Positions 1-54,540 of a stretch of DNA of 64,000 nucleotides are shown in pieces. The notes under the pieces were generated by a model. That model was given only the letters and a program-made list of their open reading frames with translations, ran no database searches and was not told the origin of the DNA. The position numbers and the translations under genes were made by a program. Numbering within the stretch: position 1 is the first letter of the stretch; every line of letters begins with the position of its first letter. Source of the DNA: Candidatus Poribacteria bacterium. GTDB lineage: Bacteria > Poribacteria > WGA-4E > JAJDTR01. The DNA lies in NCBI GenBank assembly GCA_965222225.1, contig CBDCTK010000002.1, positions 3,456,001 to 3,520,000 on the forward strand, given 5' to 3'.

Positions 1-282
1 CGCCAGAACTGGCTACGCGTTAAACTCGTCGGTGCCAAGAGTAACCGTGATGGCATTGGTGCGCGAATTCGCTTAACGGTGGGTGACGAATCCTGGGCAC
101 AAGAAGTACACGCAGGGCATAGTTACTTGTGCAGCAACGATCCGAGAGTCCTTTTTGGTCTAGGTGATGTCCGAACGGTCGATCACTTGGAAGTTCGCTG
201 GCTCAGTGGAACCGTGCAGGTGCTTGAGCATATCCCTGCAAACCAAGAAATCGTCATTACTGAACCGGATAGCGAGAAGTGA
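1..282 (+). CDS. 3' end of a CRTAC1/ASPIC-UnbV domain protein (truncated by window start)
   Basis: Frame 1 is open from base 1: NWLRVKLVGAKSNRDGIGARI...GHSYLCSNDPRVLFGLG...LEVRW, typical of the ASPIC/UnbV domain. Confidence 0.85.
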   Translation, partial: RQNWLRVKLVGAKSNRDGIGARIRLTVGDESWAQEVHAGHSYLCSNDPRVLFGLGDVRTVDHLEVRWLSGTVQVLEHIPANQEIVITEPDSEK

Positions 283-342: not shown

Positions 343-512
343 GTAGGGATCAAACGAACGAATAGTGAGTGCGATAGCAATCTTTGATAACGAAGGATCA
401 AGGGATTGGATAATGACCGCGATAGAGTTCTCATAGAAAATTCCGTAGTGACTGCGATTGGAATCTTCCCCTCGTCCGTTACTCCATGCAGGTCGGCGAA
501 CCAAATCCCTAC
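343..512 (+). repeat. REP-like inverted pair carrying two 35-nt units and truncated units
   Basis: GTAGGGAT (343-350) pairs with ATCCCTAC (505-512); units at 351-385 and 399-433; partial units at 434-470. Confidence 0.75.
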
Positions 513-2670: not shown

Positions 2671-3735
2671 TCATCGATTCGCGGGTAACTTCCGCCCCGA
2701 CTGTTTAATCTCTCCCCACGTTACCGTGCGCTTCGCCTTTGAAGACACCGAAAACGCAATCTTCGGATCAAACCACGATGGGTATGTATCAGACCCGGGA
2801 TCATTCGTCACATTTCTAGGGTTGCTGCCATCCGCGCCCATAATATAGATTTCGTTGTTTCTATCGCGATTTGTGGCAAAAGCAATCTCCTTGCCATTCG
2901 GAGACCACGTGGGGTGTCCGTCCCAGACAAAGATATTCTTGGTCAACTGCTTGGGGTTGCCGCCATCTCTATCCATGACGAAGATCTCGCTATCACCGTC
3001 TAGATCGGACTCAAACACTAACTTGTGGCCCAATGGCGGCTGCCATCCCGGCTTTTTCTCGTTCTTGGGAGTATTTGTAAGATTCTTTTTTTTGTCTCCC
3101 GTTCTGTCCATTACAAAGATGTCGTAATTTCCCGTTCGATTGCTCGACCACGCAATCCGTTTGCCATCGGGCGACCAGGATGGGCTTTCATCTTGCGCAG
3201 AGTGAAAAGTGACTCGAAAACTGGTTTCCTGATCGCCGTCTCCAAGGTCGGCAAACGGAAACGGATCAATATTCTTCTTCCTGTCCTCGACAATGCGGAC
3301 AACCCAAACATCAAAATTCCAGTTGTCGGCCCCGTGTGCGTGTACGACAGCAAGCCAATTCTCATTCGGCGACCATGAAGGCGTGAGATCCCGGTTGCCG
3401 GCTGTGACGACTCTAATGTTCTCTCCATCGTTGTCCATGATGTAGACTCTCTCGAAATGTGATTCCCGATCGGAAGCGAACAGGATTCTGGTTCCATCCC
3501 GAGACCACGAAGGCGATATATCCTGCTTGGCATGCTTCGTTATTCGCTGCACATTCTCCCCATCGGGGTTTATCGCAAAGATATCCTTATTCTTTTTTGC
3601 CTTTCTATCCGACACAAAAACAATGCGCGCAGTCTCCGGAGGCTCTACCGCAATTGCATTTACCACCACCAGTAGCATACTCATGAGAATGACGCCGCAT
3701 AGAACGACACATAGCCGCTTATCAATACGTTGCAT
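2671..3735 (-). CDS. Secreted TolB-like PD40 beta-propeller protein with TWGxIK tail
   Basis: Repeated PSWSPDG/EIFVMDRDG units; signal peptide; ends VSSKAKRTVTWGEIKQ. Confidence 0.9.
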   Translation of the reverse strand: MQRIDKRLCVVLCGVILMSMLLVVVNAIAVEPPETARIVFVSDRKAKKNKDIFAINPDGENVQRITKHAKQDISPSWSRDGTRILFASDRESHFERVYIMDNDGENIRVVTAGNRDLTPSWSPNENWLAVVHAHGADNWNFDVWVVRIVEDRKKNIDPFPFADLGDGDQETSFRVTFHSAQDESPSWSPDGKRIAWSSNRTGNYDIFVMDRTGDKKKNLTNTPKNEKKPGWQPPLGHKLVFESDLDGDSEIFVMDRDGGNPKQLTKNIFVWDGHPTWSPNGKEIAFATNRDRNNEIYIMGADGSNPRNVTNDPGSDTYPSWFDPKIAFSVSSKAKRTVTWGEIKQSGRKLPANR

Positions 3736-3868
3736 TTTGACGTCCTTTGCCGATCAATTGACCGTTAACTCGTAAAATCAAAACCTAATAACCAGTGAAA
3801 GTGAATAAGCGCACCACTAAAATTGCTTTATTCGGAAAAATCTAAAACTTCAACACGTCAATATAAAA

Positions 3869-3900
3869 GAAACCGAGTTTCTTCGAAGAAACTCGGTTTC
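3869..3900. repeat. Perfect 32-bp palindrome (REP-like or terminator-like)
   Basis: GAAACCGAGTTTCTTC-GAAGAAACTCGGTTTC between the two PD40 paralogs. Confidence 0.85.
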
Positions 3901-3991
3901 CTTATTCCTTGCACGGTCAAAATGGGCGGGCTATCGAGACGTATTCCGCCACTTTCTGGCAAAATCAAGTAGTCAAAAATTCAATCGCTCG

Positions 3992-5056
3992 TTATTTCTC
4001 CGCTCGTTTTCGCCCGGACTGCTTTATCTCGCCCCAAGTGACAGTGCGTTTGGTCTTGGGAGAAACCGAAAATGCAATCTTGGGATCGAACCAAGCAGGG
4101 CTCTGATCAGACGCAGCGTTATTCGTCAGATTAACGAGATTGTTGCCGTTGGCATCCATCACATAGATTTCATTGTTTCTGTCACGATTTGTAGCGAAGG
4201 CAATCTCTTTGCCATTCGGCGACCATGTGGCCTGACCATCCCACACGAAGACATTCTTGGTTAACTGTTTGACGTTCCCTCCATTCGCATCCATCACATA
4301 GATTTCACTATCCCCGTCTCGGTCGGACGCGAAAACAATCTTTTCTCCCAACGGCGGCTGCCAATCCGGCCCCTTCTCCCCTTTGGGATTATTCGTAAGA
4401 TTTTTCTTGTTGTCCCCATTTCTATCCATGACGAAAATATCGTAGTTGCCCGTCCGGTTACTTGACCATGCAATCTGTTGCCCGTCCGGCGACCAAGAAG
4501 GGCTTTCGTCTTGCGCCGAGTGCTTCGTAAGTCGAAGACTGTTGATCTCGTCGCCGTTGCCGAGTTCGCTGAATTTATACGCAGCCATCTTCTTCTTCTC
4601 ATCTTGCATGCGAACAATCCAGACATCAAAATTCCAATTGTCATTGACGTTCGCGTGAACACAAGCAATCCAATTCCCGTTCGGCGACCAAGATGGCGTC
4701 AAATCCCGCGTTCCATCCGTGATCGTGATGACGTCCTCCTCTCTATCAACGGCGCTAAGAACGCGGATATGCTCCCACGAATCGTCCCGAACGGCTGCCA
4801 TGGCGAACCGAGTGCCGTCCGGTGACCACGTAGGTGATATATCTGCTTTTGCATGGTCGGTTATTCTATCTACGTTACTCCCATCGGCGTCCATGACAAA
4901 GATATCTTTATTCTTTTTTACTTTTCGGTCTGACTCAAAAAGCATTCGTGCGACCTCCGGAGGCTCCTGGGCAGTCCCACTCGCTACGACGAGGAGCATA
5001 CCCATCAAGCAGACGCCAAGAAGATTCATGCTCAAACATTTCTTATACTCTTGCAT
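3992..5056 (-). CDS. Secreted TolB-like PD40 protein, tandem paralog of 2671-3735
   Basis: Same length (1065 nt) from ATG 5056, which follows AAGGGG; shared blocks HSAQDESPSWSPDG and NGKEIAFATNRDRNNEIY; ends VSPKTKRTVTWGEIKQ. Confidence 0.9.
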   Translation of the reverse strand: MQEYKKCLSMNLLGVCLMGMLLVVASGTAQEPPEVARMLFESDRKVKKNKDIFVMDADGSNVDRITDHAKADISPTWSPDGTRFAMAAVRDDSWEHIRVLSAVDREEDVITITDGTRDLTPSWSPNGNWIACVHANVNDNWNFDVWIVRMQDEKKKMAAYKFSELGNGDEINSLRLTKHSAQDESPSWSPDGQQIAWSSNRTGNYDIFVMDRNGDNKKNLTNNPKGEKGPDWQPPLGEKIVFASDRDGDSEIYVMDANGGNVKQLTKNVFVWDGQATWSPNGKEIAFATNRDRNNEIYVMDANGNNLVNLTNNAASDQSPAWFDPKIAFSVSPKTKRTVTWGEIKQSGRKRAEK

Positions 5057-5191
5057 GTTTTCCCCCTTTATATATTGCAGCCTACAAACCCGTGTGAAGT
5101 TCAGCGAACGTTCAATACTACGTTGTCCGGCCATCAAGGATGATGCCGATTGACACCAAATAGTCAAATTTATCTTAGGAGTTCCGTAAAC

Positions 5192-6064: not shown

Positions 6065-6101
6065 TTCACCTTTACTAATTCCAAGAAAACAGTGCTTTAT
6101 T

Positions 6102-6227
6102 TAACCTAAAGTTGCCACCTTTGTAGCACAAGGGATCTCTATCGCACTCGCTATTTGCTCGCTTGATCTGTTAGATTGTGCTTGTGATGCGCAAACTGAC
6201 AGTTTGCGCCAGTAGCAACTTGGGTTA
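6102..6227. mobile_element. MITE-like element with TA-bounded ACCCAAGTTGC-type inverted ends, containing REP hairpins and a 35-nt unit
   Basis: TAACCTAAAGTTGCCA ... TAGCAACTTGGGTTA; unit on the minus strand at 6131-6165; hairpin GCGCAAACTG-A-CAGTTTGCGC at 6189-6209. Confidence 0.65.
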
Positions 6228-6311
6228 ATTATGAAGAGAGAGTTAGGATGGGAAGGTGGAGGCATGGGAAAATAAGATACCCATTCTCCACACAATTGAA
6301 GGTGTTAAAAT

Positions 6312-7175
6312 CTAACGGCCCTTGATGCTACCCCAAGTGGCAGTCAATTTCCCCACAGACTCGACAGCCGTTCCCACGCCCGACAAGTCTGCGCCGTTAC
6401 TCATAACGTCCTTAACCTCGTCCTGTGAAAGCGCCGCATGGTAGATAGCGACCTCGTCAATCAAACCGCCAAACGGTTCGCCCGGTGCGTGCGCAGAACG
6501 TTCGCCGATAATGAACAGGGGAGTTCCGTTAAACCCGATAGCTCCGGTGTGTCCACCCTCCTCCTGAATCACTTCGCCGTTGACATACGCGGTGACGCCA
6601 TCATTGCCATCGAAAACCATACAGATATGTTGCCATTCTCTACTGAGAACCGTGCCATCTGCCGTATTGAATTCCCAATCGGCATCATTGCCATCAGGGC
6701 CGCCGCCTTCGCGCCCTCCTGGAGCAGGAGCCCTGCCGTCAAGAGTTATCCAGTTCGCCATTCCACCACCGCGAACGCCGATCTGTATACCGATCCACGG
6801 ATTGTCCCATTCCGGCTCGTCATCATACGGGAAGCCCGCCGCAAATTGCGTCGGAGCCGCATCATCCGCGTTCACCCACGCCATCAATGTAGCCTTGTCG
6901 GTTGGGTGCAGCCCCACTGAGTTGTCGATGATAATGGCGTTCCCGGGTTCCTGTACAAACGACATGGCAAATCCCGGATTGGCGACCGGAGCGTCGCTCG
7001 GTACCGGTAGGACAGGACCGCTCGGCCTACCGTCACGCCCTGCACCTGTATCATCTTTGGCGGGGTTGTTCTCATCGTTGAATGTCCAATATCCCACCGG
7101 GCTTACCGACATACCAACGAGAGGAAACACCATCGTCAAACTGGCAATAGCCAGTATCGCTACGAAACACTTCAT
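6312..7175 (-). CDS. Secreted LamG-like domain protein, paralog of 5192-6064
   Basis: AGGAGG RBS; shared DDAAPTQF, WDNPW and GREGGGPDGxDADWE; ends VESVGKLTATWGSIKGR. Confidence 0.88.
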   Translation of the reverse strand: MKCFVAILAIASLTMVFPLVGMSVSPVGYWTFNDENNPAKDDTGAGRDGRPSGPVLPVPSDAPVANPGFAMSFVQEPGNAIIIDNSVGLHPTDKATLMAWVNADDAAPTQFAAGFPYDDEPEWDNPWIGIQIGVRGGGMANWITLDGRAPAPGGREGGGPDGNDADWEFNTADGTVLSREWQHICMVFDGNDGVTAYVNGEVIQEEGGHTGAIGFNGTPLFIIGERSAHAPGEPFGGLIDEVAIYHAALSQDEVKDVMSNGADLSGVGTAVESVGKLTATWGSIKGR

Positions 7176-7456
7176 AAAATACCTCCTAATTTTTTTGAAC
7201 CGTGGACATCGGGCGATTTTCCCTAATCCACGGATGAGTTAATCAAAATACGTCGCACGTGGTAGCGTTACTACCTCGTTTGACATATAGCGAATCCGAT
7301 ACATGAGATTCACACCATTCTACTGACTTTAGTCTTTCATGTCAACGAAAAAACTAAGCCGCAGTTTCCGCTTCACCAAATTGACATCTCCCACCATCAC
7401 CTTAGCCGCTTGGTAGATGAAATGGTATGAACGAGCCCAATCTATGTGAGAGCTTT

Positions 7457-8794
7457 TTATGCCAACGCGTCACGGACGGGTCTTCCGCCGCGCGAGAGCA
7501 CAACGCGAACTCCTTCTGGAGATTCGAGACTTTGGTTGTAGTCGATTCCGAGGCAATGATAAATTGTCGCTGACAGATCCTCGGGACGAACCGGAGTTTC
7601 AGCAGGTTCCGTGCCTCGTGGATCCGATGACCCAACAACTGTTCCACCTTTGATTCCGCCGCCAGCCATCATAATGGAGAACACCTTCGGATGATGGTCT
7701 CGTCCTACGTCCCGGTTGATCACCGGGGTTCGTCCAAATTCACCCATTGCGATAACTAGCGTGCTATCTAACAGGCCGCGCTCGGAAAGATCGCCGATAA
7801 GCGCCGACACTGTTTGGTCAAAGCCGCCGAGTTTGCCGGCAAGCGCCGGGAAGATGTTCGTATGAGTGTCCCATCCGCCGTTCGATACGGTGACAAACCC
7901 GACGCCTGATTCAACGAGCCGCCTAGCTAGCAAGCAACTCTGTCCAAAGTCATCACGCCGATACGAATCCCTGACGTTATCCGGCTCTTGCCGGAGATCG
8001 AACGCCTCCCGCGCCTCCGACGAGCTAATCAGGTTGTAAGCCGCAGTATAGAAGTCATCGACACTACGCACTCGTTCACTGCCGCTTTCATGTTTCTTGA
8101 ACGCTGCATCAACCGTCTGGCGCAACGAGCGACGTCGGTCAAGACGCTCCATCGCAATCCCCTTGGGCGGATGGAGATCATGTACTTGGAAGTCATCCCG
8201 CGACGGAGCTCCGCCGACCGAAAACGGATCTAGTGCCGCCCCAAGAAATCCCGCGCCGGAATAATCGAACGCGGTAGGAATCGCGATATAAGGCGGCAGC
8301 GCGGAACGCGATCCTTTTAGTTTTGCAACAACCGATCCGTAACTCGGAACAGCAAATCCGGGTAGCGGTTGGAATCCCGTCATCAAGTAGTGCGTACCAC
8401 GCCCGTGATCTGCCTCTATCGAAGTCATCGATCGAATGACACAGATTTTGTCCATCTGCTTGGCAATTCGTGGCATGTGTTCGCAAATCTCGATTCCGGG
8501 GACATTTGTGCCTATGGGTTTGAAAAATCCGCGAACTTCCTGCGGCGCATCCGGTTTCAGGTCCCACAAATCAAGATGGCTTGGCCCACCGCCCATCCAA
8601 ATCAGAATCACTGACTTTGCGGTTCCCTCTCGACCGTCTGCCGGGGATGCGAACGCTTTAAGCCGGAGGAAATCCGCCATACCGAGCCCAAACAGTCCGA
8701 GAGCGCCAACTTTCAGAAAATCGCGACGGTGAAAACCCTCGCAATCTGTGCAGTGCGCCAAATTTTTTCGCTTCATGGTAATCACCTTTCTCAT
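7457..8794 (-). CDS. DUF1501 family protein with twin-arginine-like N-terminus
   Basis: RRDFLKVG; AKSVILIWMGGGPSHLDLWDLKP; CLLARRLVESGV; GWDTH; MGEFGRTP; GRDHHP. Confidence 0.92.
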   Translation of the reverse strand: MRKVITMKRKNLAHCTDCEGFHRRDFLKVGALGLFGLGMADFLRLKAFASPADGREGTAKSVILIWMGGGPSHLDLWDLKPDAPQEVRGFFKPIGTNVPGIEICEHMPRIAKQMDKICVIRSMTSIEADHGRGTHYLMTGFQPLPGFAVPSYGSVVAKLKGSRSALPPYIAIPTAFDYSGAGFLGAALDPFSVGGAPSRDDFQVHDLHPPKGIAMERLDRRRSLRQTVDAAFKKHESGSERVRSVDDFYTAAYNLISSSEAREAFDLRQEPDNVRDSYRRDDFGQSCLLARRLVESGVGFVTVSNGGWDTHTNIFPALAGKLGGFDQTVSALIGDLSERGLLDSTLVIAMGEFGRTPVINRDVGRDHHPKVFSIMMAGGGIKGGTVVGSSDPRGTEPAETPVRPEDLSATIYHCLGIDYNQSLESPEGVRVVLSRGGRPVRDALA

Positions 8795-8933
8795 TTAGCA
8801 AAATTGCAACTCAAAACAACAGCTTGCGATTCAACTGATTTTATCACATCAATCTACAGAATGTCGCTCATCAATCCCCAAGATTCGCGCTATTCCGAGA
8901 ATTTATCCCGCTTTTGTTTGAGTCCCATTTGAG

Positions 8934-11123
8934 TTAGTTGATAAACAAGAATGATCTGGAAGAAACAACTGCCCAAAGCAAGTCTTCAAAACCTTCCTGT
9001 CGTGATGGACTTCCCGCAATGTATTGATTTGCCTCAGTCAACTCTATTTCTGAGGGCGAACGACTTAAGACCTTGAGATAAAGATCGGTTATTGCCTGTT
9101 CATCCGTCTGCTCGGAACCAATCAGACGCGTGATTATGTTGTTGTCTGCACTAATTTTGTCGTTGACATACGGAGAATTGATAATGTGTAATGCTTGTGT
9201 AAGTGTCGGTTCAAGCTTCGGTTCAAGTTCCGAGAGGACCTCTCGATTCGACATGCCGAAAAGCGATAGAAACCTTCGACCAACCGGCAACGGCAATTGG
9301 ACAGCCCGCGTACCCATCGGATATTGTCCAAAGTTCTCCCGAACTTCCACTACATCGTTCAATGCATCAAGGAACACCTGCGCAAGCATTGGTCGCGGGT
9401 AAAAGCGAGAGAAAAAGCGGTCATCAAGTTCGTTTGTTTCGTTGGGAATGGAAGACAATTGATAAGTCCTCGAATTCAAGATAAGTCTAATAGCGTGTTT
9501 CGTATCGAAACCGCTACGCACAAAATCCTCCGATAACGCTTCCAATAATCCTTCCACGGTCGCAGGCGTAGTTTCGCGCATGTCGTCAACCGGATGAATA
9601 ATCCCTCTGCCGAAATAGTTGCTCCAGAGTCGATTTACCGTCGCCTTGGCAAAAAATGGATTGGTTGGAGAGGTCATCCAGTCTGCGAGTAACTCCACGT
9701 AATCGCCCTGATACCGTTGTTCCACCGGATCGCCACCGAGAACGGTGGGAACCGCTTCCTCCCCTCGGTTGCCCAGCACCGATTGATTGATGACTTGCCC
9801 CGTTGGGTTGTAGTAAATAACTCGTTCTTGGTACAGTTTGCCATCACGCGTCGCAACCTTTCCGCTGAACGCTGCAAAGTTCCAATAATCATCCGTCGTC
9901 CACCGATCAAATGGATGTTTATGGCAGCGCGCACAAGTCAAACGCAATCCGAGAAATGCTTGGGCTGTTGTTTCGGCACGGCCATCGGGATTCACTTCAA
10001 TGCGATAATAATTTGCAGGCCCGACCTGATAGGTGCTACCCCGTGCCATAAGTATCTCTCGAACGAATTGGTCATAAGGTTCGTTTTCTTTAACACTCTT
10101 AAGTATCCACTCGTGAAAGAGGGTTGCGCTCCGCATGTCCAGTCCGGCACCGCCGAGCAACCGCGGATGACACCGCAGCATGTCACCGAGCCTTAACGTA
10201 CGAAGGTCAATAAATTCGGGTCGTTCGAGGAGTTCATCAATCAAAGCCGCTCTCTTGTTGACATCGCGGTTTTCAACAAACGCTTTTAGTTCATCGGGTG
10301 TCGGCAACTTTGCGATGGTATCCAAGTAGACGCGCCGGATGAACTCCTCATCGCTCGAAAGCGCTGATGGAACGACATTAAGCTTTTTCAGCTTCGATCC
10401 GACAAAAGTATCAATAAAGTTGTTTGCTGGAAATTCAGGATAATCATCCAACCCACTCTCGCGCGGCATAGTCACGAATGCGGCGGAAACTTGCCCCAAG
10501 AATCGCGCGAGAATTGCTGTCCCACCCCAACGCATGCTGGTCACTAATCCATCTTCGCTTACCTCTGCAATCGGCTCATCACTCGATTCATAAACCGTTT
10601 TGTGCGTAACATCTTCTACGGATCCATCCGTAAAATACGCCAAAGCCTTGAGTTGTTGAGTGTCGCCAACCGCTGGTAGAACGAATTCGTCCGGATACAC
10701 CTCTAGACGTTCAATGCGCGGATCCGAAGGCGAAAACGGCGCTCCTGCCTCCAGCCAGCGCAGAATCGTGAGATATTCTTCGGAATTGACGCTAAAACGC
10801 ATTCCGCCCTCGTGGCTTACCTGTTCCGTAGGTTTAAGCAGAAACAGACTGCGATCTGGTTCAATTAAATTCACGCGCCTTCCGCGGCTGTCGGTAACAA
10901 TCGGTTGATAATCAGCCTCCGGATCCAGTGTAAGTAGTGAAAGATCAAACCCTCCCTGCCCCCCAAATTTTCCGTGGCAGAGCGCTGTTGAGCACCCGCT
11001 CCGATCCAGTATGGGCGCAACGTCATTGAGAAATCGCGGAACACCATCATCGGTTTTTGCCTGCGCAACTGCCGCGGTGCATACGATGACCACAATCGCC
11101 GTCCACAGAATTGTCCGCACCAT
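8934..11123 (-). CDS. DUF1549/DUF1553 (PSCyt2/PSD1) protein with an Ig-like Big_2 domain
   Basis: GCSTALCHG, DEEFIRRVYLD, LTCARCHKHPFDRWT, VNRLW..YFGRGI; usual partner of DUF1501. Confidence 0.9.
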   Translation of the reverse strand: MVRTILWTAIVVIVCTAAVAQAKTDDGVPRFLNDVAPILDRSGCSTALCHGKFGGQGGFDLSLLTLDPEADYQPIVTDSRGRRVNLIEPDRSLFLLKPTEQVSHEGGMRFSVNSEEYLTILRWLEAGAPFSPSDPRIERLEVYPDEFVLPAVGDTQQLKALAYFTDGSVEDVTHKTVYESSDEPIAEVSEDGLVTSMRWGGTAILARFLGQVSAAFVTMPRESGLDDYPEFPANNFIDTFVGSKLKKLNVVPSALSSDEEFIRRVYLDTIAKLPTPDELKAFVENRDVNKRAALIDELLERPEFIDLRTLRLGDMLRCHPRLLGGAGLDMRSATLFHEWILKSVKENEPYDQFVREILMARGSTYQVGPANYYRIEVNPDGRAETTAQAFLGLRLTCARCHKHPFDRWTTDDYWNFAAFSGKVATRDGKLYQERVIYYNPTGQVINQSVLGNRGEEAVPTVLGGDPVEQRYQGDYVELLADWMTSPTNPFFAKATVNRLWSNYFGRGIIHPVDDMRETTPATVEGLLEALSEDFVRSGFDTKHAIRLILNSRTYQLSSIPNETNELDDRFFSRFYPRPMLAQVFLDALNDVVEVRENFGQYPMGTRAVQLPLPVGRRFLSLFGMSNREVLSELEPKLEPTLTQALHIINSPYVNDKISADNNIITRLIGSEQTDEQAITDLYLKVLSRSPSEIELTEANQYIAGSPSRQEGFEDLLWAVVSSRSFLFIN

Positions 11124-11246
11124 TTTTCCCTCCCGAAATCTTTCTGCAAATCCAAGTCGCTTCGTTTACTGTGTTTTTACAATTTCCACTCGGGCTACCA
11201 ACAACCATCTACGCAAGTATGAGTCCACTTATACCATCCCATCTAA

Positions 11247-11275
11247 AGTATATCATAATACTCCTGCGGTGTCAA
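11247..11275 (-). promoter_or_regulatory. Sigma70-type promoter for the DUF1549-DUF1501 genes
   Basis: Minus strand TTGACA-17 nt-TATACT. Confidence 0.7.
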
Positions 11276-11309
11276 CACCTGACAAGCAAGAAATTTCCTT
11301 TAATTAACC

Positions 11310-11497
11310 TAACCCAAGTTGCTATCCATTCCTGTAGGTCGGGATCAAGCGACTGAAAAAGGAGCGCGATAGAAATCCCTTCTAGCCCGACCCGCAAATA
11401 TGCCATGGATTGGCAATTTACTCCAAGCAGTGATTGGCTCGATTCAACTCACATTCTCCCGGTATGCAACATTTTCTATAAGTAACAACTTGGGGTA
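11310..11497. mobile_element. MITE-like element with the same end family as 6102-6227
   Basis: TAACCCAAGTTGCTA ... TAACAACTTGGGGTA; contains GTAGGTCGGGAT[35-nt unit 11346-11380]TCTAGCCCGAC. Confidence 0.65.
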
Positions 11498-11560
11498 ATT
11501 ATGTGATTTGTGATGTTTGCTTATGATGAGAATTTGACATCGCTGTTACTGCGGACGTCG

Positions 11561-11641
11561 GTAGCAGCGATAAACTGAGCGAATAGATTGAGCGAGCGAA
11601 CGAATAATGAGGGCGATAGAGATTCCTCTCCGGATCGCGAC
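11561..11641 (+). repeat. GTAG-type REP interrupted by a 56-nt insert (partial plus full 35-nt unit)
   Basis: GTAGCAGCGAT[11572-11627]CTCCGGATCGCGAC compared with intact GTAGGAGCGATCTCCGAATCGCGAC at 19408 and 32933. Confidence 0.8.
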
Positions 11642-11719
11642 CTACAGGTTTCTAGCAGCGAATTTCGATCGTCATATCGAAGATGGAATCCCCTCTTTGC
11701 ACGTCCGGTAGGGTATTCA

Positions 11720-11767
11720 TTTAACGATATGCTGTCATTTAAGGATATACTGTTTAAGGATATACTG
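11720..11767 (+). repeat. Three 15-bp direct repeats upstream of the polymerase promoter
   Basis: TTTAACGATATGCTG (11720), TTTAAGGATATACTG (11738), TTTAAGGATATACTG (11753). Confidence 0.8.
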
Positions 11768-14137: not shown

Positions 14138-14181
14138 ACGCGCACCTAGCCCGAAACAGAACTTCTGCGGTTGAACCCCCG

Positions 14182-14239
14182 GTAGGAGCGATCTCCGAAT
14201 CGATCAACCGAACGAATAGTGAGGGCGATAGCTTTTCTC
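14182..14239 (+). repeat. GTAG-type REP joined to a 35-nt unit
   Basis: GTAGGAGCGATCTCCGAATCGAT followed by CAACCGAACGAATAGTGAGGGCGATAGC (unit 14205-14239). Confidence 0.8.
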
Positions 14240-14363: not shown

Positions 14364-15749
14364 ATGATAGACACAACCTATCTCCTCAACGACAAACAGA
14401 TGCGGGATTTCATCGTTAACGGGTATGTGATTGTCAAGACGGATCTGCCACGGGATTTTCACGATGAGATTTACAAAGCCACAAACACAGTGTTTGAAAA
14501 GGAGGGCAATCCGGGCAACAACCTTTTGCCTCGCATTCCCGAAATTCAGCGTGTGCTCGAAGACCAGACCGTCCGTGGCGCGTTGACGAGTCTCTTAGGC
14601 GCGGATTACTATATGCAGCCCCATCGCCACCCCCATATTAACCCGCCAAAAAGCAAGGGGCAAAACCTGCATCAGGATGGCGGCAAACGCTGGTCGCATC
14701 GGACGCGTCGTTTGCTGGTCTTCTACTATCCACAGGACACGCCGGAAGAGTTGGGCCCCACCAGTATTGTTCCGGGGAGCCACTACTATTGTACCCCTGA
14801 AGGCGGTAAGATTCGGGGCGAAGTTCCACTTTCCGGAGAATCCGGCACCGTGACCATCGCGAACTACGACCTTTGGCATAGGGCTATGCCCAATCGAACC
14901 GACATGCCTCGCTACATGATGAAATTCCTTTCCGCCCGCATGTCGGAACCCGATTCACCTTCATGGAATACTGACCAGCCGGACTGGATGAGCGACACAC
15001 CAATTGGCAACCCCGAGCATCAGACATTGTTCAAGCATGTTTGGGATTGGCACCACGGCAAAACTACTTCAAATACTGAAGCCAACGGTGCTCCCGGTGA
15101 CGCGATAATAAGCAAACTGATAGCAACGCTGTACGATGGCGGCGAGTCGGTATGCCTCCGCGCTGCATATCAACTAGCCGCATTCGGCGTGCTAGCTATT
15201 CCCGACTTGGTAGCGCTGTTGGAGGAAGAATCAGAAGTCGTCCGTCGAAATGTGTGCTATGCCTTGAGTGCCATCGGTGCGCCCGCCGTCGCCCCCCTGA
15301 TTCACGCCCTGGAAGCTAAGAATTGGTGGACCAGTGATAGCGCGGCGGAAGTGCTGGGAGATATGGGACTTGATGCGCAGGAAGCCGTGCCGGCGCTGAT
15401 GCGTGCGGTGCGAGACGAATCGGATGCTGTCCGCTCTCATGCTGCGGAGGCATTGGGAACAACAGGGCAATTATCCGCCGCCGCTGTCCCGGCGCTGATT
15501 ACCGCACTGCAGGATGCGGAAGGATCCGTCCGTCGCAACGCGGTGTTCGCGTTGGCTCAGCTGGGACCGCACGCTAGGGATGCCGTACACGCACTACAGA
15601 ATGTCCTCTTCGACGAAAACCGATATGTGCGTGGAGACGCTGTGAACGCGCTTCATCGTATTGGCACAAAGGAGGCGTCGGATGTGTTGCTTCGCTATCT
15701 AACCATGTTCCGCTGGTGCCCGTTGACCACCCGAGAGAGTACGCATTAA
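14364..15749 (+). CDS. PhyH-family dioxygenase fused to HEAT repeats
   Basis: LHQD, IVPGSH and DLWHRA in the N-terminal half; repeated AVPAL..AL.D....VR..AA.ALG in the C-terminal half. Confidence 0.9.
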   Translation: MIDTTYLLNDKQMRDFIVNGYVIVKTDLPRDFHDEIYKATNTVFEKEGNPGNNLLPRIPEIQRVLEDQTVRGALTSLLGADYYMQPHRHPHINPPKSKGQNLHQDGGKRWSHRTRRLLVFYYPQDTPEELGPTSIVPGSHYYCTPEGGKIRGEVPLSGESGTVTIANYDLWHRAMPNRTDMPRYMMKFLSARMSEPDSPSWNTDQPDWMSDTPIGNPEHQTLFKHVWDWHHGKTTSNTEANGAPGDAIISKLIATLYDGGESVCLRAAYQLAAFGVLAIPDLVALLEEESEVVRRNVCYALSAIGAPAVAPLIHALEAKNWWTSDSAAEVLGDMGLDAQEAVPALMRAVRDESDAVRSHAAEALGTTGQLSAAAVPALITALQDAEGSVRRNAVFALAQLGPHARDAVHALQNVLFDENRYVRGDAVNALHRIGTKEASDVLLRYLTMFRWCPLTTRESTH

Positions 15750-15875
15750 AAAATAACGGAATTAGTAGCTTGTAGCTTTTAGACTGACGACAAACATAAA
15801 ACTTGGTACCCTGTCGTAAATCTTTTCGTCACACGTAGATGTCCATAGTGACTATTCTTCTCGTAGGAGTTTGCT

Positions 15876-16730
15876 ATGGACATTTTGAATCTTATGAAAG
15901 AGTTTCCAAATCAAGAATCTTGTCTCAGATTTATAGAGGAAAAACGTTGGAAGGACGGTGTTTGCTGTATCCACTGTGGCAGTGAAAAAGTTGGACGCAA
16001 GAACAAAAACGACATTACTACTGGTTGGAATTGCTACGATTGTGAATCTAGCTTTTCGGCTACAGCAGGAACCATCTTCCATGGTACCAAGATACCTCTC
16101 CAGAAATGGTTTTTGGCTATCTCAATTCTTTCCAATGCCAAGAAAAGCATATCGAGTTGTCAGCTTGCTCGTGACTTGGACATGAATCAAAAGTCCGCTT
16201 GGTATATGGCAATGCGCCTCCGTGAGAAAATGAGTGATAGTGATGAATTGCTGAAAGGGATAGTTGAAGCGGACGAAACCTATGTCGGCGGCAAACCCAG
16301 AGCAAAATCTAAGAGAGGTAGAGGCACAAATAAATCTCCCGTCATCGGCGTAGTCGAGAGAGGCGGTCGGGTGGTTGCTAAATTCATGAAGGTTCTATCT
16401 GGTGAAAATATCAGAGAATTCATCCTTAGCAATGTCTCACCCGATGAGTCTATTCTTATGACTGATGAATTTCGCTCTTACAATAGTCTGGACGAAGATA
16501 TCGAAAGACATGTTATCCATCACCAAGAGAGATATGTTTCTGAGGACGGCGTAACTCACACCAACACCATCGAGTCGTTTTGGGCTTGTGTCAAGAGGTC
16601 ATTCTACGGAACGCATCATCACTACAGCAAGAAGTGGCTGCCACTGTATATCATGGAGTCTTGCTGGAAATATAATCGCAGAAAAGATGATGAGATTTTC
16701 ATAAGATTTTTTGATGAATGCTTCACCTGA
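15876..16730 (+). mobile_element. IS1595-family (ISXO2-like) transposase
   Basis: Zn ribbon CIHC...CYDC; TAGTIFHGTK.PL.KW; catalytic EADETYVGG, LMTDE, HTNTIESFW; AT-rich relative to neighbours. Confidence 0.92.
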
Positions 16731-17150
16731 GCCACATGAATTGTTTGGCTATCGGTATATTCTGTCAACGACAACATCATGGTGTGCTGAAAATCCCATA
16801 GTGTTGGAAATTAAAATCCCGCAGATAACCCGCAATGCTCCCGCGAGCATGTACAAACGCTTGGTCAACATGATATGCCTCCATTTCTCTCTTATAGAGA
16901 TGTATTTTAGTGTGAATCAAGATTCCGAACACTGTCTAAAATGATTGTACATTAAGAAGAGAAAAGCAAGCAAATCGACCAAAAAGCAGTTAACTACTAA
17001 GTCCCAAAAATAATCATCTGATTTAAAGCAAACTTCGGGAACAAATTTTATGTTCTGACACGGCTCACGGCGCTCCGATTCTCCTGCCGCTCCTGCTAGA
17101 TTAACAAATCCAGCAGATATTGAGTTCGAGTCTCCCGCTCCAGAGTAAAT

Positions 17151-17185
17151 CAAACGACTGGACAGGGAGTGCGATAGAGATCCCC
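17151..17185 (+). repeat. 35-nt dispersed unit
   Basis: CAAACGACTGGACAGGGAGTGCGATAGAGATCCCC. Confidence 0.75.
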
Positions 17186-19207: not shown

Positions 19208-19337
19208 GTTTAACATTTACAGGACAGGTATTGAAGATATTATCATTCTCCCCGTGTTCCGGAATTGTCCTGTTTAGAACTTGCTTCAAATCCATTTTCG
19301 CGTAAAATCATATGCCCTGAAACCGATGAAATGAGAT

Positions 19338-19372
19338 CAAGCGAGTGGATAACGAGCGCGATAGAGATCCCT
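19338..19372 (+). repeat. 35-nt dispersed unit inside a degenerate GAAACCGA...TCGGTTTC palindrome
   Basis: GAT|CAAGCGAGTGGATAACGAGCGCGATAGAGATCCCT|T. Confidence 0.8.
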
Positions 19373-19407: not shown

Positions 19408-19432
19408 GTAGGAGCGATCTCCGAATCGCGAC
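19408..19432 (+). repeat. Intact GTAG-type REP
   Basis: GTAGGAGCGATCTCCGAATCGCGAC, identical to 32933-32957. Confidence 0.85.
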
Positions 19433-19483: not shown

Positions 19484-19726
19484 ATGGAAGTGAATAAGGA
19501 TGTCATCATTAGCATGGCGATTGAGACGTGGCGTTTTAGACGGGTTTCTGAGCGTTTGATCGCCAAGCTTGAAACCGGCGAGCAACAGCGATACCAAAGC
19601 CAGTTGCGATGGTTCGAGAAGAAACTGGAGGAGTTTCTGGTGCAGGTTGGTTGGCAGATTGTTGATGTCGAAGGACAGCCCTTCGATCCGGGCATGGCTG
19701 CCACTCAAAAACTCGGAACAAGCTGA
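19484..19726 (+). pseudogene. Probably truncated GrpE-like protein
   Basis: AAGGAG RBS; helical N-terminus, then IVDVEGQPFDPGMAAT (GrpE-type G..FDP motif), ending 6 codons later. Confidence 0.55.
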
Positions 19727-37769: not shown

Positions 37770-37856
37770 CAATCGACCGAATAGGGAGCACGATAGAAAT
37801 CCCATAGTGACTGCGATAGAGTTCCCATAGAGATCCTAGGGCGATAGAAAATCCTT
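37770..37856 (+). repeat. 35-nt unit followed by three 5'-truncated copies
   Basis: 37770-37804 full unit; TAGTGACTGCGATAGAGTTCCCA; TAGAGATCCT; AGGGCGATAGAAAATCCTT. Confidence 0.8.
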
Positions 37857-38091
37857 TTCTCAATTGATGCCACATCAGAATTACAATTTCTATCTTTATT
37901 GAGTAGTATAGTAATTAAGAGTAATTCATGTCAATTAAATTTAGGACCGTTCCATAGGGCTGTCTCACGATTGTAGTGGACAATCATGGCTGTCCCGACT
38001 GAACGGCGCACAATTTTCAAAAACCAATGCCAATAAAACATTTTGCATAACTCATTTGCAGGTGTGTGGGAATAGACAACAGAGACATACG

Positions 38092-54346: not shown

Positions 54347-54540
54347 GAGCCTGTTTGAATAATCGGTGGCAAAGCAAGTTTTGGTCATTTGTAAAAAGTT
54401 TCTCATGTTTTCATTGTTGGCTGCTACATACCTGTAGGATGTCTATCGCAGTCGCTATTCGCTCCCTTGATCCCACTCTGGGGCTTTTAGAGGCGGGTGC
54501 GCAGTGCGCACCCTACAAACTGTACTTTTCAAACAGGTTC
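54347..54540. mobile_element. MITE-like element with IS5-type ends and a TTA duplication, containing a REP hairpin and a 35-nt unit
   Basis: TTA|GAGCCTGTTTGAA...TTCAAACAGGTTC|TTA; unit on the minus strand at 54435-54469; GGGTGCGCA-G-TGCGCACCCTAC. Confidence 0.7.

What the first reader, a model, noticed from the sequence alone, without database searches (positions are those of the whole stretch)
6123..11641. Filled and empty sites: the 35-mer is inserted cleanly into different REP hairpins
Seen: removing 6131-6165 restores the hairpin GTAGCACAATCTGTTAGATTGTGC. Removing 11346-11380 restores GTAGGTCGGGATTCTAGCCCGAC. Removing 11572-11627 gives GTAGCAGCGATCTCCGGATCGCGAC, which differs at two bases from the intact REP at 19408 and 32933. 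Three different hairpin families are each opened 3' of GAT with no apparent base loss or duplication. Known: GTAG-type REPs are nicked by RAYT (TnpA-REP) HUH nucleases. Inference: nicks or breaks at hairpins may supply the priming ends.
Basis: partly seen in the sequence, partly recalled or inferred. Interest (0 to 1): 0.88.

Follow-up and report, generated by a model that had tools for sequence, protein, structure and literature searches.

The report
Tiny hairpin element nested inside repeats
A 35-37-base hairpin-carrying DNA unit, present about 900 times in this sponge-symbiont (Poribacteria) genome, has repeatedly been inserted at fixed points inside other small palindromic repeats, which makes it one of the smallest apparently mobile DNA elements and a rare case where its insertion rules can be read from the sequence.

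Summary
The '35-mer' is a 37-nt unit, GATCAAnnGAnYGRATARnGAnnGCGATAGARATCCC. G000 has 901 copies (nhmmer E<=1e-3). It is abundant only in two Poribacteria genera. Empty copies of all three host hairpins exist in the genome. The 6131 site is clean. The third site holds a partial plus a degenerate unit.

Across the genome the 5' junction is always a host G (or GA, GAT) followed by ATCAAG. The net gain is mostly 35 nt but ranges from 33 to 36, and 1-3 host bases are often lost on the 3' side. In many GTAG REP families the cut lies exactly 6 nt after GTAG.

The unit carries a hairpin with four covarying pairs around a tandem G.A. Its orientation follows GC skew, not gene direction, and empty REPs show the same bias. 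One orthologous filled/empty pair was found next to a Y1 transposase gene.

Best reading: a very small non-autonomous ssDNA element, comparable to cyanobacterial SDRs or REPs, probably moved by a Y1 HUH nuclease at the replication fork. The enzyme is not identified. A reverse transcriptase is unlikely.

The parts
6132..6168 (-). Full 37-nt unit (G1 at 6168, C37 at 6132). The net insert is 35 nt; the register is ambiguous (6130-6164, 6131-6165 or 6132-6166).
   Evidence: L=35, p=3..5, 5 empty paralogues of the junction 22-mer
6123..6181 (+). Host GTAG hairpin GTAGCACAATCTGTTAGATTGTGC, interrupted by the unit. Here the unit lies on the strand opposite to GTAG.
   Evidence: 6 intact copies in the genome
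6095..6231 (.). MITE-like carrier with terminal inverted repeats TTAACCTAAAGTTGC / GCAACTTGGGTTAA. It contains the hairpin and the unit. The whole carrier is absent at the orthologous site in 9 congeners (one of them carries a different insert). Boundaries are approximate.
   Evidence: Copies that include the unit are found in G005, G001 and G003 at 87-92% identity.
11343..11379 (+). Full 37-nt unit. The true net insert is 11344-11378 (unit positions 2-36), between host G and C.
11334..11391 (+). Host REP GTAGGTCGGG|CTTCTAGCCCGAC. The insertion point is 6 nt after GTAG.
   Evidence: 6+2 intact copies
11300..11502 (.). Second MITE-like carrier of the same terminal-repeat family (TTAACCTAACCCAAGTTGC ... 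CAACTTGGGGTAATTA). The orthologous region is empty in G001 and G005 and holds different repeat mosaics in five other congeners. Boundaries are approximate.
11561..11641 (+). REP of family C (GTAGCAGCGAT...CTCCGGATCGCGAC) holding a 5' partial unit (11569-11586, positions 1-18), then ATT, then a degenerate full unit (11590-11626).
19408..19432 (+). Intact (empty) REP of family C, GTAGGAGCGATCTCCGAATCGCGAC.
   Evidence: 38 identical copies in the genome
32933..32957 (+). Intact (empty) REP of family C.
348..460 (+). Array: a unit (positions 1-35), a fragment (14-24) fused to a second full unit, then 3' fragments (27-33, 16-28).
14179..14231 (+). REP family C broken in its 3' arm (…CCGAATC|G) by a unit that matches only positions 1-30. 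The whole REP+unit is absent from 5 congeners.
17148..17184 (+). Full unit (A at position 1), not in a recognisable hairpin.
19335..19371 (+). Full unit, not in a recognisable hairpin.
37770..37860 (+). A unit (positions 4-37) followed by three fragments that all end at position 37 (15-37, 27-37, 21-37).
54436..54472 (-). A unit inserted in an 'E' hairpin element (GCCCCAGAGTGG|…|ACAGGTATGTAGC).

Best explanation
The unit is a very small, non-autonomous mobile DNA element of 36-37 nt. Any of many genomic copies can serve as donor. It is copied into single-stranded DNA at the replication fork and lands at particular G residues of hairpin-forming repeats: GTAG REPs, the 'E' hairpins that flank a Y1 gene, MITE hairpins, and other units.

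What is shown:
- The unit is discrete and has a fixed 5' junction (host G + ATCAAG).
- The net gain is 33-36 nt, with 35 the mode.
- Insertion is exactly 6 nt 3' of GTAG in many REP families.
- Different unit variants occupy the same site of one host family, and identical units sit in unrelated flanks.
- Units are nested in units.
- One orthologous filled/empty pair exists.
- An internal hairpin is kept by compensatory change on one strand only.
- Orientation tracks GC skew rather than transcription and is shared with empty REPs.

What is inferred:
- A structure-specific Y1 HUH nuclease (RAYT or TnpA-like, encoded in trans) recognises the unit's imperfect hairpin and the target.
- That enzyme cuts and joins on one strand.
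- The 3' join is finished imprecisely.
For: - Discreteness and abundance: 901 hits at E<=1e-3; 711 ungapped full copies have near-invariant positions 1-6, 9-10, 13, 20-21 and 24-30.
- Excision test: joined flanks recur elsewhere in the genome almost only for a removed length of 35 (17, 14, 11 and 8 units at p=2..5), 34, 36 or 41 (two units plus CTGC).
- Empty REP copies: 38, 62, 48, 14, 6 and 6 per family.
- Target geometry: GTAG-N5-G| in 91 units, and GTAGGAGCG (N4) in about 32-40, against 1-33 at the remaining offsets. The same arrangement (GTAGGCGGGG|ATCAA) is seen in all 4 genomes of the second genus.
- Independent mobility: within one host site there are 8 or more different stem variants. 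There are 60 pairs of identical 37-mers whose two flanks are both unlike. Nested insertions fall after unit G24 (79), G18 (30), G20 (21) and G13 (19). An orthologous filled/empty hairpin lies downstream of the Y1 gene, and the orthologous units differ by only 2 point changes.
- Structure: mutual information is 1.15, 0.92, 0.65 and 0.45 for pairs 11-19, 8-22, 7-23 and 12-18. G.T is common (208+88+22+21) while A.C is rare (8+12+9+11). On 79 units from the window and other Poribacteria records, 95.1% of cells are paired against 66.9% in shuffles, 0 of 500 shuffles reaching that.
- Replication link: units are 102(+):222(-) where skew is positive and 277:105 where it is negative, whatever the neighbouring gene orientation. 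Empty REPs are biased the same way: 51:19, 55:16, 39:16, 10:3.
- Y1 genes (PF01797) are present in 9 of 9 congeners plus G000 and in 4 of 4 genomes of the second genus. Units often lie within 30-300 nt of them.
- Y1 enzymes recognise imperfect ssDNA hairpins and use the 5' tetranucleotide as a guide (passages of PMC8266576).
Against: - No Y1 subfamily is seen in all unit-bearing genomes. The subclass-1.2-like gene was not found in 2 of 4 genomes of the second genus, yet it is present in 3 of 3 genomes of a genus without units. Other RAYT types are patchy or truncated in G000.
- Closeness of units to Y1 genes may be indirect, because those genes are flanked by REPs that attract units.
- Characterised RAYTs cut at CT or CA outside the stem-loop. 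IS200/IS605-type insertion is exact, whereas here 1-3 host bases are often lost and the unit's 3' tail varies in sequence and length.
- The hairpin is weak by nearest-neighbour energies: -1.2 to -2.2 kcal/mol, no better than shuffles.
- The sense strand lies on the C-rich strand. From my recollection of IS608 this is the opposite of what insertion of the active strand into the lagging-strand template would give.
- The TAG-N5-G spacing is not required in nested insertions (host position 18 is G in 32 and A in 45).
Confidence: 0.4

Rival explanations
1. Polymerase template switching with no dedicated enzyme. A nascent strand stalls in a hairpin-forming repeat and its 3' G (or GA, GAT) pairs with the start of another unit exposed as single-stranded DNA. 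It copies about 36 nt and returns to its own template through the C-run, sometimes skipping 1-3 bases.
For: - There is 1-4 nt of shared sequence at the 5' junction (p ranges 2, 3, 3-4 and 3-5).
- The 3' junction is variable and C-rich, with loss of 0-3 host bases.
- Partial units and arrays are abundant.
- Orientation follows the replication strand.
- No enzyme co-occurs strictly with the unit.
Against: - The ends are sharp at positions 1 and 36-37 in hundreds of copies in unrelated hosts. Copying from genomic donors should often carry donor flanks along.
- Nothing in this model selects for the covarying hairpin.
- It does not explain the exact GTAG+6 position across many REP families.
- It does not explain the restriction to two genera while related genera with the same REPs lack units.
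Confidence: 0.25
2. The unit does not move on its own. It was inserted a few times, then spread as a passenger of REPs and MITEs. Gene conversion among copies shuffles its variable stem.
For: - The 6131 and 11346 units arrived together with whole MITEs, and the 14202 unit arrived with its REP.
- Filled copies of the 6109-6209 segment exist in three other species at 87-92% identity.
- Junctions are identical, and identically imperfect, within a host family.
- 115 pairs of identical 37-mers share both flanks.
Against: - 60 pairs of identical 37-mers have both flanks unlike.
- Units occur in at least ten different GTAG heads, in E hairpins, and in other units.
- An orthologous hairpin is filled in three genomes and empty in six, with its flanks conserved.
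- Orthologous units differ only by ordinary point changes, so in-situ shuffling is not evident.
Confidence: 0.12
3. Reverse-transcriptase-mediated, target-primed copying of a small RNA, which is the first reader's implied 'priming ends' model.
For: - G.U-type wobbles are tolerated on one strand only.
- Fragments sharing the 3' end occur in tandem, for example at window 37770-37860.
- Both junctions show microhomology.
Against: - PF00078 was found at E<=1e-5 in only 3 of 9 congeners and 2 of 4 genomes of the second genus. In G000 there is only one weak match, E 6e-6.
- Orientation is independent of transcription.
- 5' partial units are as common as 3' partial units.
- No RNA data were available: 0 of the runs listed is on record as RNA.
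Confidence: 0.05
4. The unit is a host-selected structural or protein-binding motif, for example adding GATC sites or a binding hairpin, maintained in place by selection rather than by selfish propagation.
For: - The invariant positions are highly conserved.
- The hairpin is kept by compensatory change.
- Most units are intergenic: 783 of 901 by crude ORF calls.
Against: - Units are absent from 134 of 151 genomes sampled in the phylum.
- Presence and absence differ by species at orthologous sites.
- Units are nested and occur as broken copies in arrays.
- They show no fixed position relative to genes.
Confidence: 0.08

Closest known systems
Small dispersed repeats (SDR4-6) of Nostocaceae (Elhai et al. 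2008, Genome Res 18:1484)
   Same: Both are very short, high-copy dispersed units that appear as precise inserts in otherwise homologous sequence. Their mobility is inferred and the enzyme is unknown. SDR5 is reported to insert between the third and fourth bases of GCGATCGC, that is after GCG (passages of PMC4390886 and PMC5861425). Here the unit follows a host G and begins ATC.
   Different: The primary paper is not held. Sizes of 21-27 nt and other details come from my recollection of its abstract. The unit here is 36-37 nt and lies in Poribacteria, not cyanobacteria, in a genome where HIP1 is not enriched (240 strand-counts). PMC5861425 states that no SDR-like repeat was found outside Nostocaceae among HIP1-rich cyanobacteria. 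Sequence relatedness to SDRs could not be tested.
REP / REPIN elements with RAYT (TnpA-REP) Y1 HUH nucleases
   Same: Both are short, intergenic, hairpin-forming repeats in hundreds of copies. Hairpins are kept by compensatory change. Both act as single-stranded DNA. Y1 genes are present, and here they share a strand bias with the genome's own GTAG REPs.
   Different: The unit has no 5' GTAG/GTRG tag. Its stem is 4 Watson-Crick pairs around a tandem G.A, with free choice of pair identity (244 variants in 711 copies). It occurs singly, not as inverted doublets. It inserts inside other REPs. Known RAYT cuts are at CT or CA outside the hairpin.
REPs nested in other palindromes (Di Nocera et al. 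2013, PMC3733652)
   Same: That paper reports GTAG or CGTC REPs regularly 'inserted within' longer or shorter palindromic sequences in Anabaena variabilis, Thermomicrobium roseum and Halothiobacillus neapolitanus (passages). This is a precedent for small palindromic repeats that target palindromes.
   Different: There the inserted elements are the GTAG REPs themselves. Here GTAG REPs are the targets. The insert is a different, untagged element with a defined cut 6 nt from GTAG.
IS200/IS605 insertion sequences and their miniature derivatives
   Same: Both insert 3' of a short target without target duplication. Both recognise imperfect hairpins and show replication-linked orientation bias (background in PMC6006769 and PMC8266576).
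   Different: The unit has one hairpin, not separate left and right end hairpins. Its target is reduced to G, GA or GAT. Its 3' junction is imprecise. No parent IS carries the unit at its ends: no long repeat flanks more than 8 units.

Membership tests
SDR (Elhai 2008) | Dispersed repeat in high copy number that appears as an insert in otherwise homologous sequence, without target duplication | tested here: met
   901 copies. Empty paralogues and one orthologous empty site exist. No duplication was seen at any resolved junction.
SDR (Elhai 2008) | Unit length 21-27 nt (recalled from the abstract) | tested here: not met
   The unit is 37 nt and the net insert is 33-36 nt.
SDR (Elhai 2008) | Sequence similarity to SDR1-8 consensus sequences | not testable with these tools
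   The primary paper is not held. No SDR sequence was available from any call.
REP/REPIN-RAYT | Conserved 5' GTAG/GTRG tetranucleotide next to the palindrome | tested here: not met
   The unit consensus on either strand lacks it. GTAG belongs to the host REPs.
REP/REPIN-RAYT | Imperfect palindrome able to form a single-strand hairpin, kept by compensatory change | tested here: met
   However, the predicted stability is low.
REP/REPIN-RAYT | Cognate RAYT gene flanked by inverted copies (REPtron) | tested here: inconclusive
   Two Y1 loci in G000 have inverted units on both sides. At the intact gene the immediate flanking repeats are E hairpins, one of which holds a unit. Patterns at other RAYT genes are inconsistent.
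REP/REPIN-RAYT | Replicative unit is an inverted doublet (REPIN) | not tested
   Arrays seen here are direct or nested. No systematic search for inverted doublets was made.
IS200/IS605-derived miniature element | Distinct left and right subterminal hairpins and exact insertion 3' of a fixed tetra- or pentanucleotide | tested here: not met
   There is a single hairpin. The target is G, GA or GAT. The 3' junction loses 0-3 host bases.
Classical MITE | Terminal inverted repeats and target-site duplication | tested here: not met
   The unit ends GATCAA... and ...GATCCC are direct, not inverted. No duplication is present. The carriers at 6095-6231 and 11300-11502 do have terminal inverted repeats.
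Retroelement product (retron, DGR or target-primed reverse transcription) | A reverse transcriptase gene in every genome with active copies | tested here: not met
   PF00078 at E<=1e-5 was found in 3 of 9 congeners and 2 of 4 genomes of the second genus, with only a weak match in G000.

The most novel reading that the evidence does not exclude
The unit is a self-propagating 36-nt single-strand hairpin element, the smallest class of mobile DNA. It is inserted by a Y1 HUH enzyme, possibly the little-studied subclass-1.2 type, which here turns out to have its own flanking hairpin repeats. Insertion occurs at a position measured from a GTAG/YAR tag (tag-N5-G|) on one replication strand. The four free base pairs of its stem form a neutral 'barcode' that records lineages. 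If so, it would give the first mechanistic handle on SDR-type elements, whose mobility, as far as I recall and could find, has not been explained since 2008. It would also show REP hairpins acting as landing pads for a second-order parasite.
Probability: 0.25. Interest if true: 0.85.

Novelty: new variant of a known kind. Interest (0 to 1): 0.66.

Why it matters
Elements this small are usually dismissed as non-mobile repeats. Here the sequence gives several rules that can be tested directly with oligonucleotides and purified Y1 proteins:
- a fixed 5' junction;
- a cut 6 nt from GTAG;
- dependence on the replication strand;
- a structure kept by covariation.

This could explain how very small dispersed repeats spread, in cyanobacteria as well. 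It shows repeats parasitising other repeats in an uncultivated sponge symbiont. It offers lineage markers: about 200-1,200 pattern matches per genome (550-1,220 in the home genus, about 190-200 in the second genus), with 244 stem variants among the 711 full units of G000. It also warns annotators and assemblers that intergenic mosaics in Poribacteria are built from nested 37-nt units.

Tried and rejected
- Mean folding energy over a grid of excision registers gave no sharp optimum. I replaced it with the exact-junction test.
- Rfam found nothing in the window at gathering thresholds, and only chance-level hits around 11200-11760.
- My first guess was a cyanobacterium, with HIP1 and SDR5 involved. 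I rejected it: record titles name Candidatus Poribacteria and HIP1 is not enriched.
- Orthologous intergenic alignments for five window regions showed only whole-MITE, whole-REP or mosaic differences between species. They showed no unit-only polymorphism.
- Population data were not informative. All four runs laid were Logan contigs that break at the repeats. The '35-nt skips' at 6129/6130 have sides of only 21-22 nt and different depths, so they are paralogous empty hairpins, not alleles. One low-depth contig of run X2 spans 11248-11625 with 28 gap letters, which I could not resolve. No run on record as RNA was listed, so expression was not tested.
- No long repeat family flanks more than 8 units. 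That analysis is inflated by neighbouring units that share flanks.
- A requirement for 'TAG-N5-G' in nested insertions was rejected (host position 18 is G in 32 and A in 45).
- Counting 5'- versus 3'-truncated units to infer the direction of synthesis was inconclusive. Ungapped segmentation misreads units with 1-nt indels in the tail as truncated.
- Low-copy occurrences in other genera look like mis-binned contigs (G132: 19 hits on 4 contigs; G010: 3 hits on short contigs) or single composite relics (G071, G087).
The Elhai 2008 paper is not held, so statements about SDR size and structure are recalled or taken from citing papers. No supplementary files were consulted.
- I did not use structure prediction, fold search, complex prediction, the protein database searches or the protein-atlas search.

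Full report
**What is at the coordinates**

The stretch 6131-6165 lies inside GTAGCACA|…|ATCTGTTAGATTGTGC. The stretches 11346-11380 and 11572-11627 lie inside two further GTAG hairpins. All three contain copies of one repeat. Eight copies were found in the window by the repeat finder (family D5). A ninth lies on the minus strand at 6132-6168, and another at 54436-54472.

A profile built from nine window copies finds 1,592 matches in the 5.70-Mb genome at E<=10, 901 at E<=1e-3 and 443 at E<=1e-6. A degenerate pattern with one mismatch allowed finds 829 matches, against 0 for the same pattern read backwards.

From 711 ungapped full-length copies the unit is 37 nt: G1 A T C A A n n G A n Y G R A T A R n G A n n G C G A T A G A R A T C C C37. 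Positions 2-6, 9-10, 13, 17, 20-21 and 24-30 are 94-99% conserved. Positions 7, 8, 11, 12, 14, 18, 19, 22 and 23 are free.

**The organism**

The genome is 49.8% G+C. The cyanobacterial palindrome GCGATCGC is not enriched (240 strand-counts), so my first idea of a cyanobacterial SDR/HIP1 system was wrong as to host.

**Check of the three sites**

I removed every window of 26-45 nt starting at 14 offsets around each of the 711 units. I then asked whether the joined 22-mer (11+11) occurs elsewhere in the genome.

- Hits concentrate at a removed length of 35, with the first removed base at unit position 2, 3, 4 or 5 (17, 14, 11 and 8 units).
- Smaller classes appear at 34 (7 units at p=2), at 36, and at 41. 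The 41 class is two units separated by CTGC.
- Other cells hold 0-2 units. An 18-mer version gives the same picture.

Site 1 (6131) is clean. The restored 24-mer has 6 intact copies, and the register is ambiguous over 3 positions.

Site 2 (11346) is also a 35-nt insert, but between G and C. The intact copies are GTAGGTCGGGCTTCTAGCCCGAC (6) and GTAGGTCGGGCTTCCAGCCCGAC (2).

Site 3 restores a REP two bases from the 38-copy family GTAGGAGCGATCTCCGAATCGCGAC. The 56 nt removed are a 5' partial unit, then ATT, then a degenerate unit.

**Junction rules**

In every resolved case the host supplies the G (or GA, GAT, GATC) that completes GATC at the 5' side (p ranges). The 3' side is less regular. Compared with the abundant intact copies, the outcomes are:

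| Host family | Intact copies | Filled form | Host bases lost |
|---|---|---|---|
| GTAGGGTGCG\|CACTGCGCACC | 62 | …ATCCC\|CTGCGCACC; a minority …ATCCA\|CTGC (clean 34) | CA |
| GTAGGGTGGG\|CACTGCCCACC | 48 | same behaviour | CA |
| GTAGGCGGGG\|CATCTTGCCCCGC | 14 | (not listed) | CAT |
| E hairpin GCCCCAGCGGGG\|CGACAGGT | (not counted) | …ATCCC\|ACAGGT, …ATCCT\|GACAGGT or …ATCCT\|ACAGGT | variable |

The second site in the first family (CTGCG|CACCAGCC) is a clean 35-nt insert.

When a unit sits inside another unit, the host unit is broken after G24 (79 cases), G18 (30), G20 (21), G13 (19) or G11 (12). It usually resumes three positions later (24→27 in 27 cases, 18→21 in 9).

So the net gain is 33-36 nt with a mode of 35. 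'No loss' holds for some families only.

**Where the insertion point lies**

The number of bases between the nearest upstream GTAG and the insertion point peaks sharply.

- 91 units have GTAG-N5-G|.
- 32-40 have GTAGGAGCG (N4 by this count, N6 if the A is counted as host).
- 31-33 have the second site of family A (N12).
- All other distances from 0 to 15 hold 1-15 units.

At least ten different GTAG heads are involved. At the same offset, other hosts carry CCAG (42, E hairpins), ATAA (43) and ATAG (36, host units). Host position 18 is not enriched for G among insertions after G24 (32 G, 45 A), so a TAG tag is not obligatory.

The four genomes of the second unit-bearing genus show the same GTAGGCGGGG|ATCAA and ATAGnGAnnG|ATCAA junctions, with 20-40 matches each and reversed control 0.

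After excision, hairpin potential across the junction is only modestly higher than at random intergenic GC dinucleotides:

| Measure | Units | Random sites |
|---|---|---|
| Mean dG (kcal/mol) | -3.60 | -3.00 |
| At least 6 bp spanning the junction | 37% | 29% |
| dG <= -6 | 15% | 9.5% |

These figures come from 711 units and 1,500 controls. The controls lie in REP-rich intergenic DNA.

**Internal structure**

Mutual information singles out pairs 11-19 (1.15 bits), 8-22 (0.92), 7-23 (0.65) and 12-18 (0.45). The next value is 0.16.

All Watson-Crick types occur at each pair. G.T is frequent, for example 208 at 7-23 and 88 T.G at 12-18, while A.C is rare. The pairing therefore works on the GATCAA strand only. 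Positions 9.21 and 10.20 are an invariant tandem G.A/A.G. The loop is GRATA. There are 244 stem/loop variants among the 711 units, with weak linkage between pairs.

On an independent set of 79 units (8 from the window, 71 from other Poribacteria records; 71 distinct rows):

- 95.1% of cells pair, against 66.9% in shuffles (0 of 500 as high) and 21-62% when the partner is slid;
- all four pairs show changes on both sides.

The search pattern used to collect those loci fixed Y12 and R18 but left positions 7, 8, 11, 19, 22 and 23 free.

By nearest-neighbour DNA energies the hairpin is weak: -1.2 to -2.2 kcal/mol, with z from -0.23 to +0.59. From general knowledge, such parameters give little credit to tandem sheared G.A. 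Either way, the covariation argues for recognition of a structure rather than for intrinsic stability.

**Is the unit mobile by itself?**

For:

- One host site carries many different unit variants, for example at least 8 in GTAGGCGGGG|…|CTTGCCCCGC.
- 60 pairs of identical 37-mers have both 12-nt flanks unlike. Another 115 pairs share flanks, which indicates passenger copies.
- Units are nested in units.
- An orthologous case exists. The hairpin just downstream of the stop codon of a Y1 gene reads CACCTGTCGCCCC(G/T)CTGGGGCTTT in G001b, G002a, G009 and G004a, with one- or two-base variants of it in G012 and G018. In G000, G001a and G005 it holds a unit between …ACAGG(T/G)G and CCC(G/T)CTGGGG. 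The three orthologous units differ at two positions only, one being a G.T/A-T change.

- The 6131 unit sits in a MITE of about 135 bp, and the 11346 unit in a MITE of about 200 bp of the same terminal-repeat family.
- The first MITE is absent from the orthologous spacer in all 9 congeners (one has another insert). The second region is empty in G001 and G005 and holds unrelated repeat mosaics in five others.
- The REP+unit at 14179 is likewise absent as a block from 5 congeners.
- Copies of the first MITE that include the unit occur in three other species at 87-92% identity.

Both processes therefore operate: unit insertion, and carriage by larger repeats.

**Replication link**

With crude ORF calls (at least 100 aa; 81% coding), 783 of 901 units are intergenic.

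- Orientation does not follow the flanking genes: 180:131 in ++ contexts and 114:101 in -- contexts.
- It does follow local GC skew (100-kb window): 102(+):222(-) where skew is positive and 277:105 where it is negative. The same holds within each gene context.
- The sense strand thus lies on the C-rich strand in about 70% of cases.
- Empty GTAG REPs have the same bias for their GTAG strand (51:19, 55:16, 39:16, 10:3). So do units away from GTAG (284:131). The motif GTAGG in general is unbiased (3,202:3,108).

The skew curve of this contig changes sign many times, so replichores were not defined.

**Candidate enzymes**

PF01797 (Y1 transposase) matches occur in 25 of 31 related genomes, including all 10 of the home genus and all 4 of the second genus. 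They also occur in genera without units.

The intact 157-aa gene at C2:3080255-3080728 has the motifs DHIH, WQ and YIKNQEAHH. It therefore resembles 'subclass 1.2' of PMC6006769, which that paper's Table 1 lists as having no REP. Here, and in congeners, it is flanked by inverted E hairpins of the form AAAGCCCCAGnGGGGCGACAGGTG. Paralogues have analogous CACTCCAGAGGAGTGAnATGTCAATAG elements.

Its relatives were found in 9 of 9 congeners, in 2 of 4 genomes of the second genus, and in 3 of 3 genomes of a unit-free genus. It is therefore neither necessary nor sufficient by this test.

Other RAYT types (…YIHYNP…, …YCYENP…, …YIKNNP…) often have units within 30-300 nt. They are patchy, and several are truncated in G000.

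PF00078 (reverse transcriptase) was found at E<=1e-5 in only 3 of 9 congeners and 2 of 4 genomes of the second genus. G000 has one weak match.

**Distribution**

Among 151 genomes sampled across the phylum, the pattern is abundant only in the home genus (8 of 8 plus G000; 536-1,223 matches each) and in one genus of another family (4 of 4; 185-202 matches).

- Four further genomes hold 1-19 matches. G132's 19 lie on 4 contigs and G010's 3 on short contigs, suggesting mis-binning. G071 and G087 hold single composite loci.
- 134 genomes have none.

The sister genus g6 has the same REP and E hairpins and the Y1 gene, but essentially no units.

**Interpretation**

The unit behaves as a second-order parasite of hairpin repeats. 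It is discrete, structure-constrained, strand-specific and target-specific, with many donor lineages.

I rank the explanations as follows:

1. Mobilisation by a structure-specific single-strand nuclease/transferase of the Y1 HUH kind (0.40). Such enzymes read imperfect hairpins and use a 5' tetranucleotide to choose the cut (passages of PMC8266576), and REPs share the strand bias. Against this, the known enzymes cut outside the hairpin at CT or CA, the 3' join here is imprecise, and no subfamily co-occurs strictly with the unit.
2. Microhomology-guided template switching (0.25). It explains the junctions but not the sharp ends, the covariation or the GTAG+6 rule.
3. Pure passenger spread (0.12).
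4. A host-selected motif (0.08).
5. A reverse-transcriptase route (0.05).

**Relation to the literature**

The closest described phenomenon is the SDR families of Nostocaceae. I could read only what citing papers say of them. My searches for 'Poribacteria' plus 'repetitive extragenic palindromic' (1 irrelevant paper) and for papers citing the SDR title (8 papers) found no description of such an element in Poribacteria. Di Nocera et al. 2013 report REPs inserted within other palindromes (passages). I therefore file this as a new variant of a known kind.

Noticed in passing
window 15743-17015: An IS1595-family insertion sequence (284-aa ORF 15876-16730; Pfam DDE_Tnp_IS1595 plus zinc ribbon). At least 30 further copies at 99-100% identity are listed in G000, and 90-97% copies occur in congeners. 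It appears to be a recently active IS.
   Followed up: partly
window 6095-6231 and 11300-11502: A MITE-like family with terminal inverted repeats TTAACCyAA(CC)AAGTTGC. Each copy carries a GTAG hairpin, and each is a species-specific insertion relative to congeners.
   Followed up: partly
G000 C2:3080000-3081100 (outside the window); loci L148-L171: A subclass-1.2-like Y1 (IS200-like) gene is flanked by inverted 'E' hairpin repeats (AAAGCCCCAGnGGGGCGACAGGTG). The arrangement is conserved across three genera, and paralogues have their own variant hairpins. PMC6006769 lists this subclass as having no REP, so this looks like an undescribed REPtron type.
   Followed up: partly
G000 C2:3560150-3560650 (outside the window): A C-terminal fragment of a RAYT (…LWQRSFYDHVIRDDESLDDIRAYIKNNP…) lacks its N-terminal half and is bracketed by inverted units. 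An intact 193-aa relative is present in G001.
   Followed up: partly
window 20632-21820 and 2690-4722: In-frame tandem repeats inside long ORFs: a period of about 330 nt in ORF 19569-22088, and a period of 135 nt in ORFs 2671-3735 and 3992-5167. These are probably repeat-domain proteins.
   Followed up: no
G000 contig C2, whole: GC skew changes sign many times along the 5.6-Mb contig (cumulative minimum at 2.51 Mb, maximum at 0.85 Mb). This points to rearrangements or assembly joins. Gene strand bias is seen only in the positive-skew parts.
   Followed up: no
G132 contigs C72, C83, C91, C116; G010 contigs C38, C42, C43: In these two MAGs of otherwise unit-free genera, the units lie on a few contigs only. 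Those contigs may be mis-binned from a unit-bearing genus.
   Followed up: partly
window 11248-11625 (run X2, record 22): A low-depth contig from a related strain spans this unit-bearing stretch with 28 gap letters. It may be a strain-level indel near the units, but the tool output did not resolve it.
   Followed up: no
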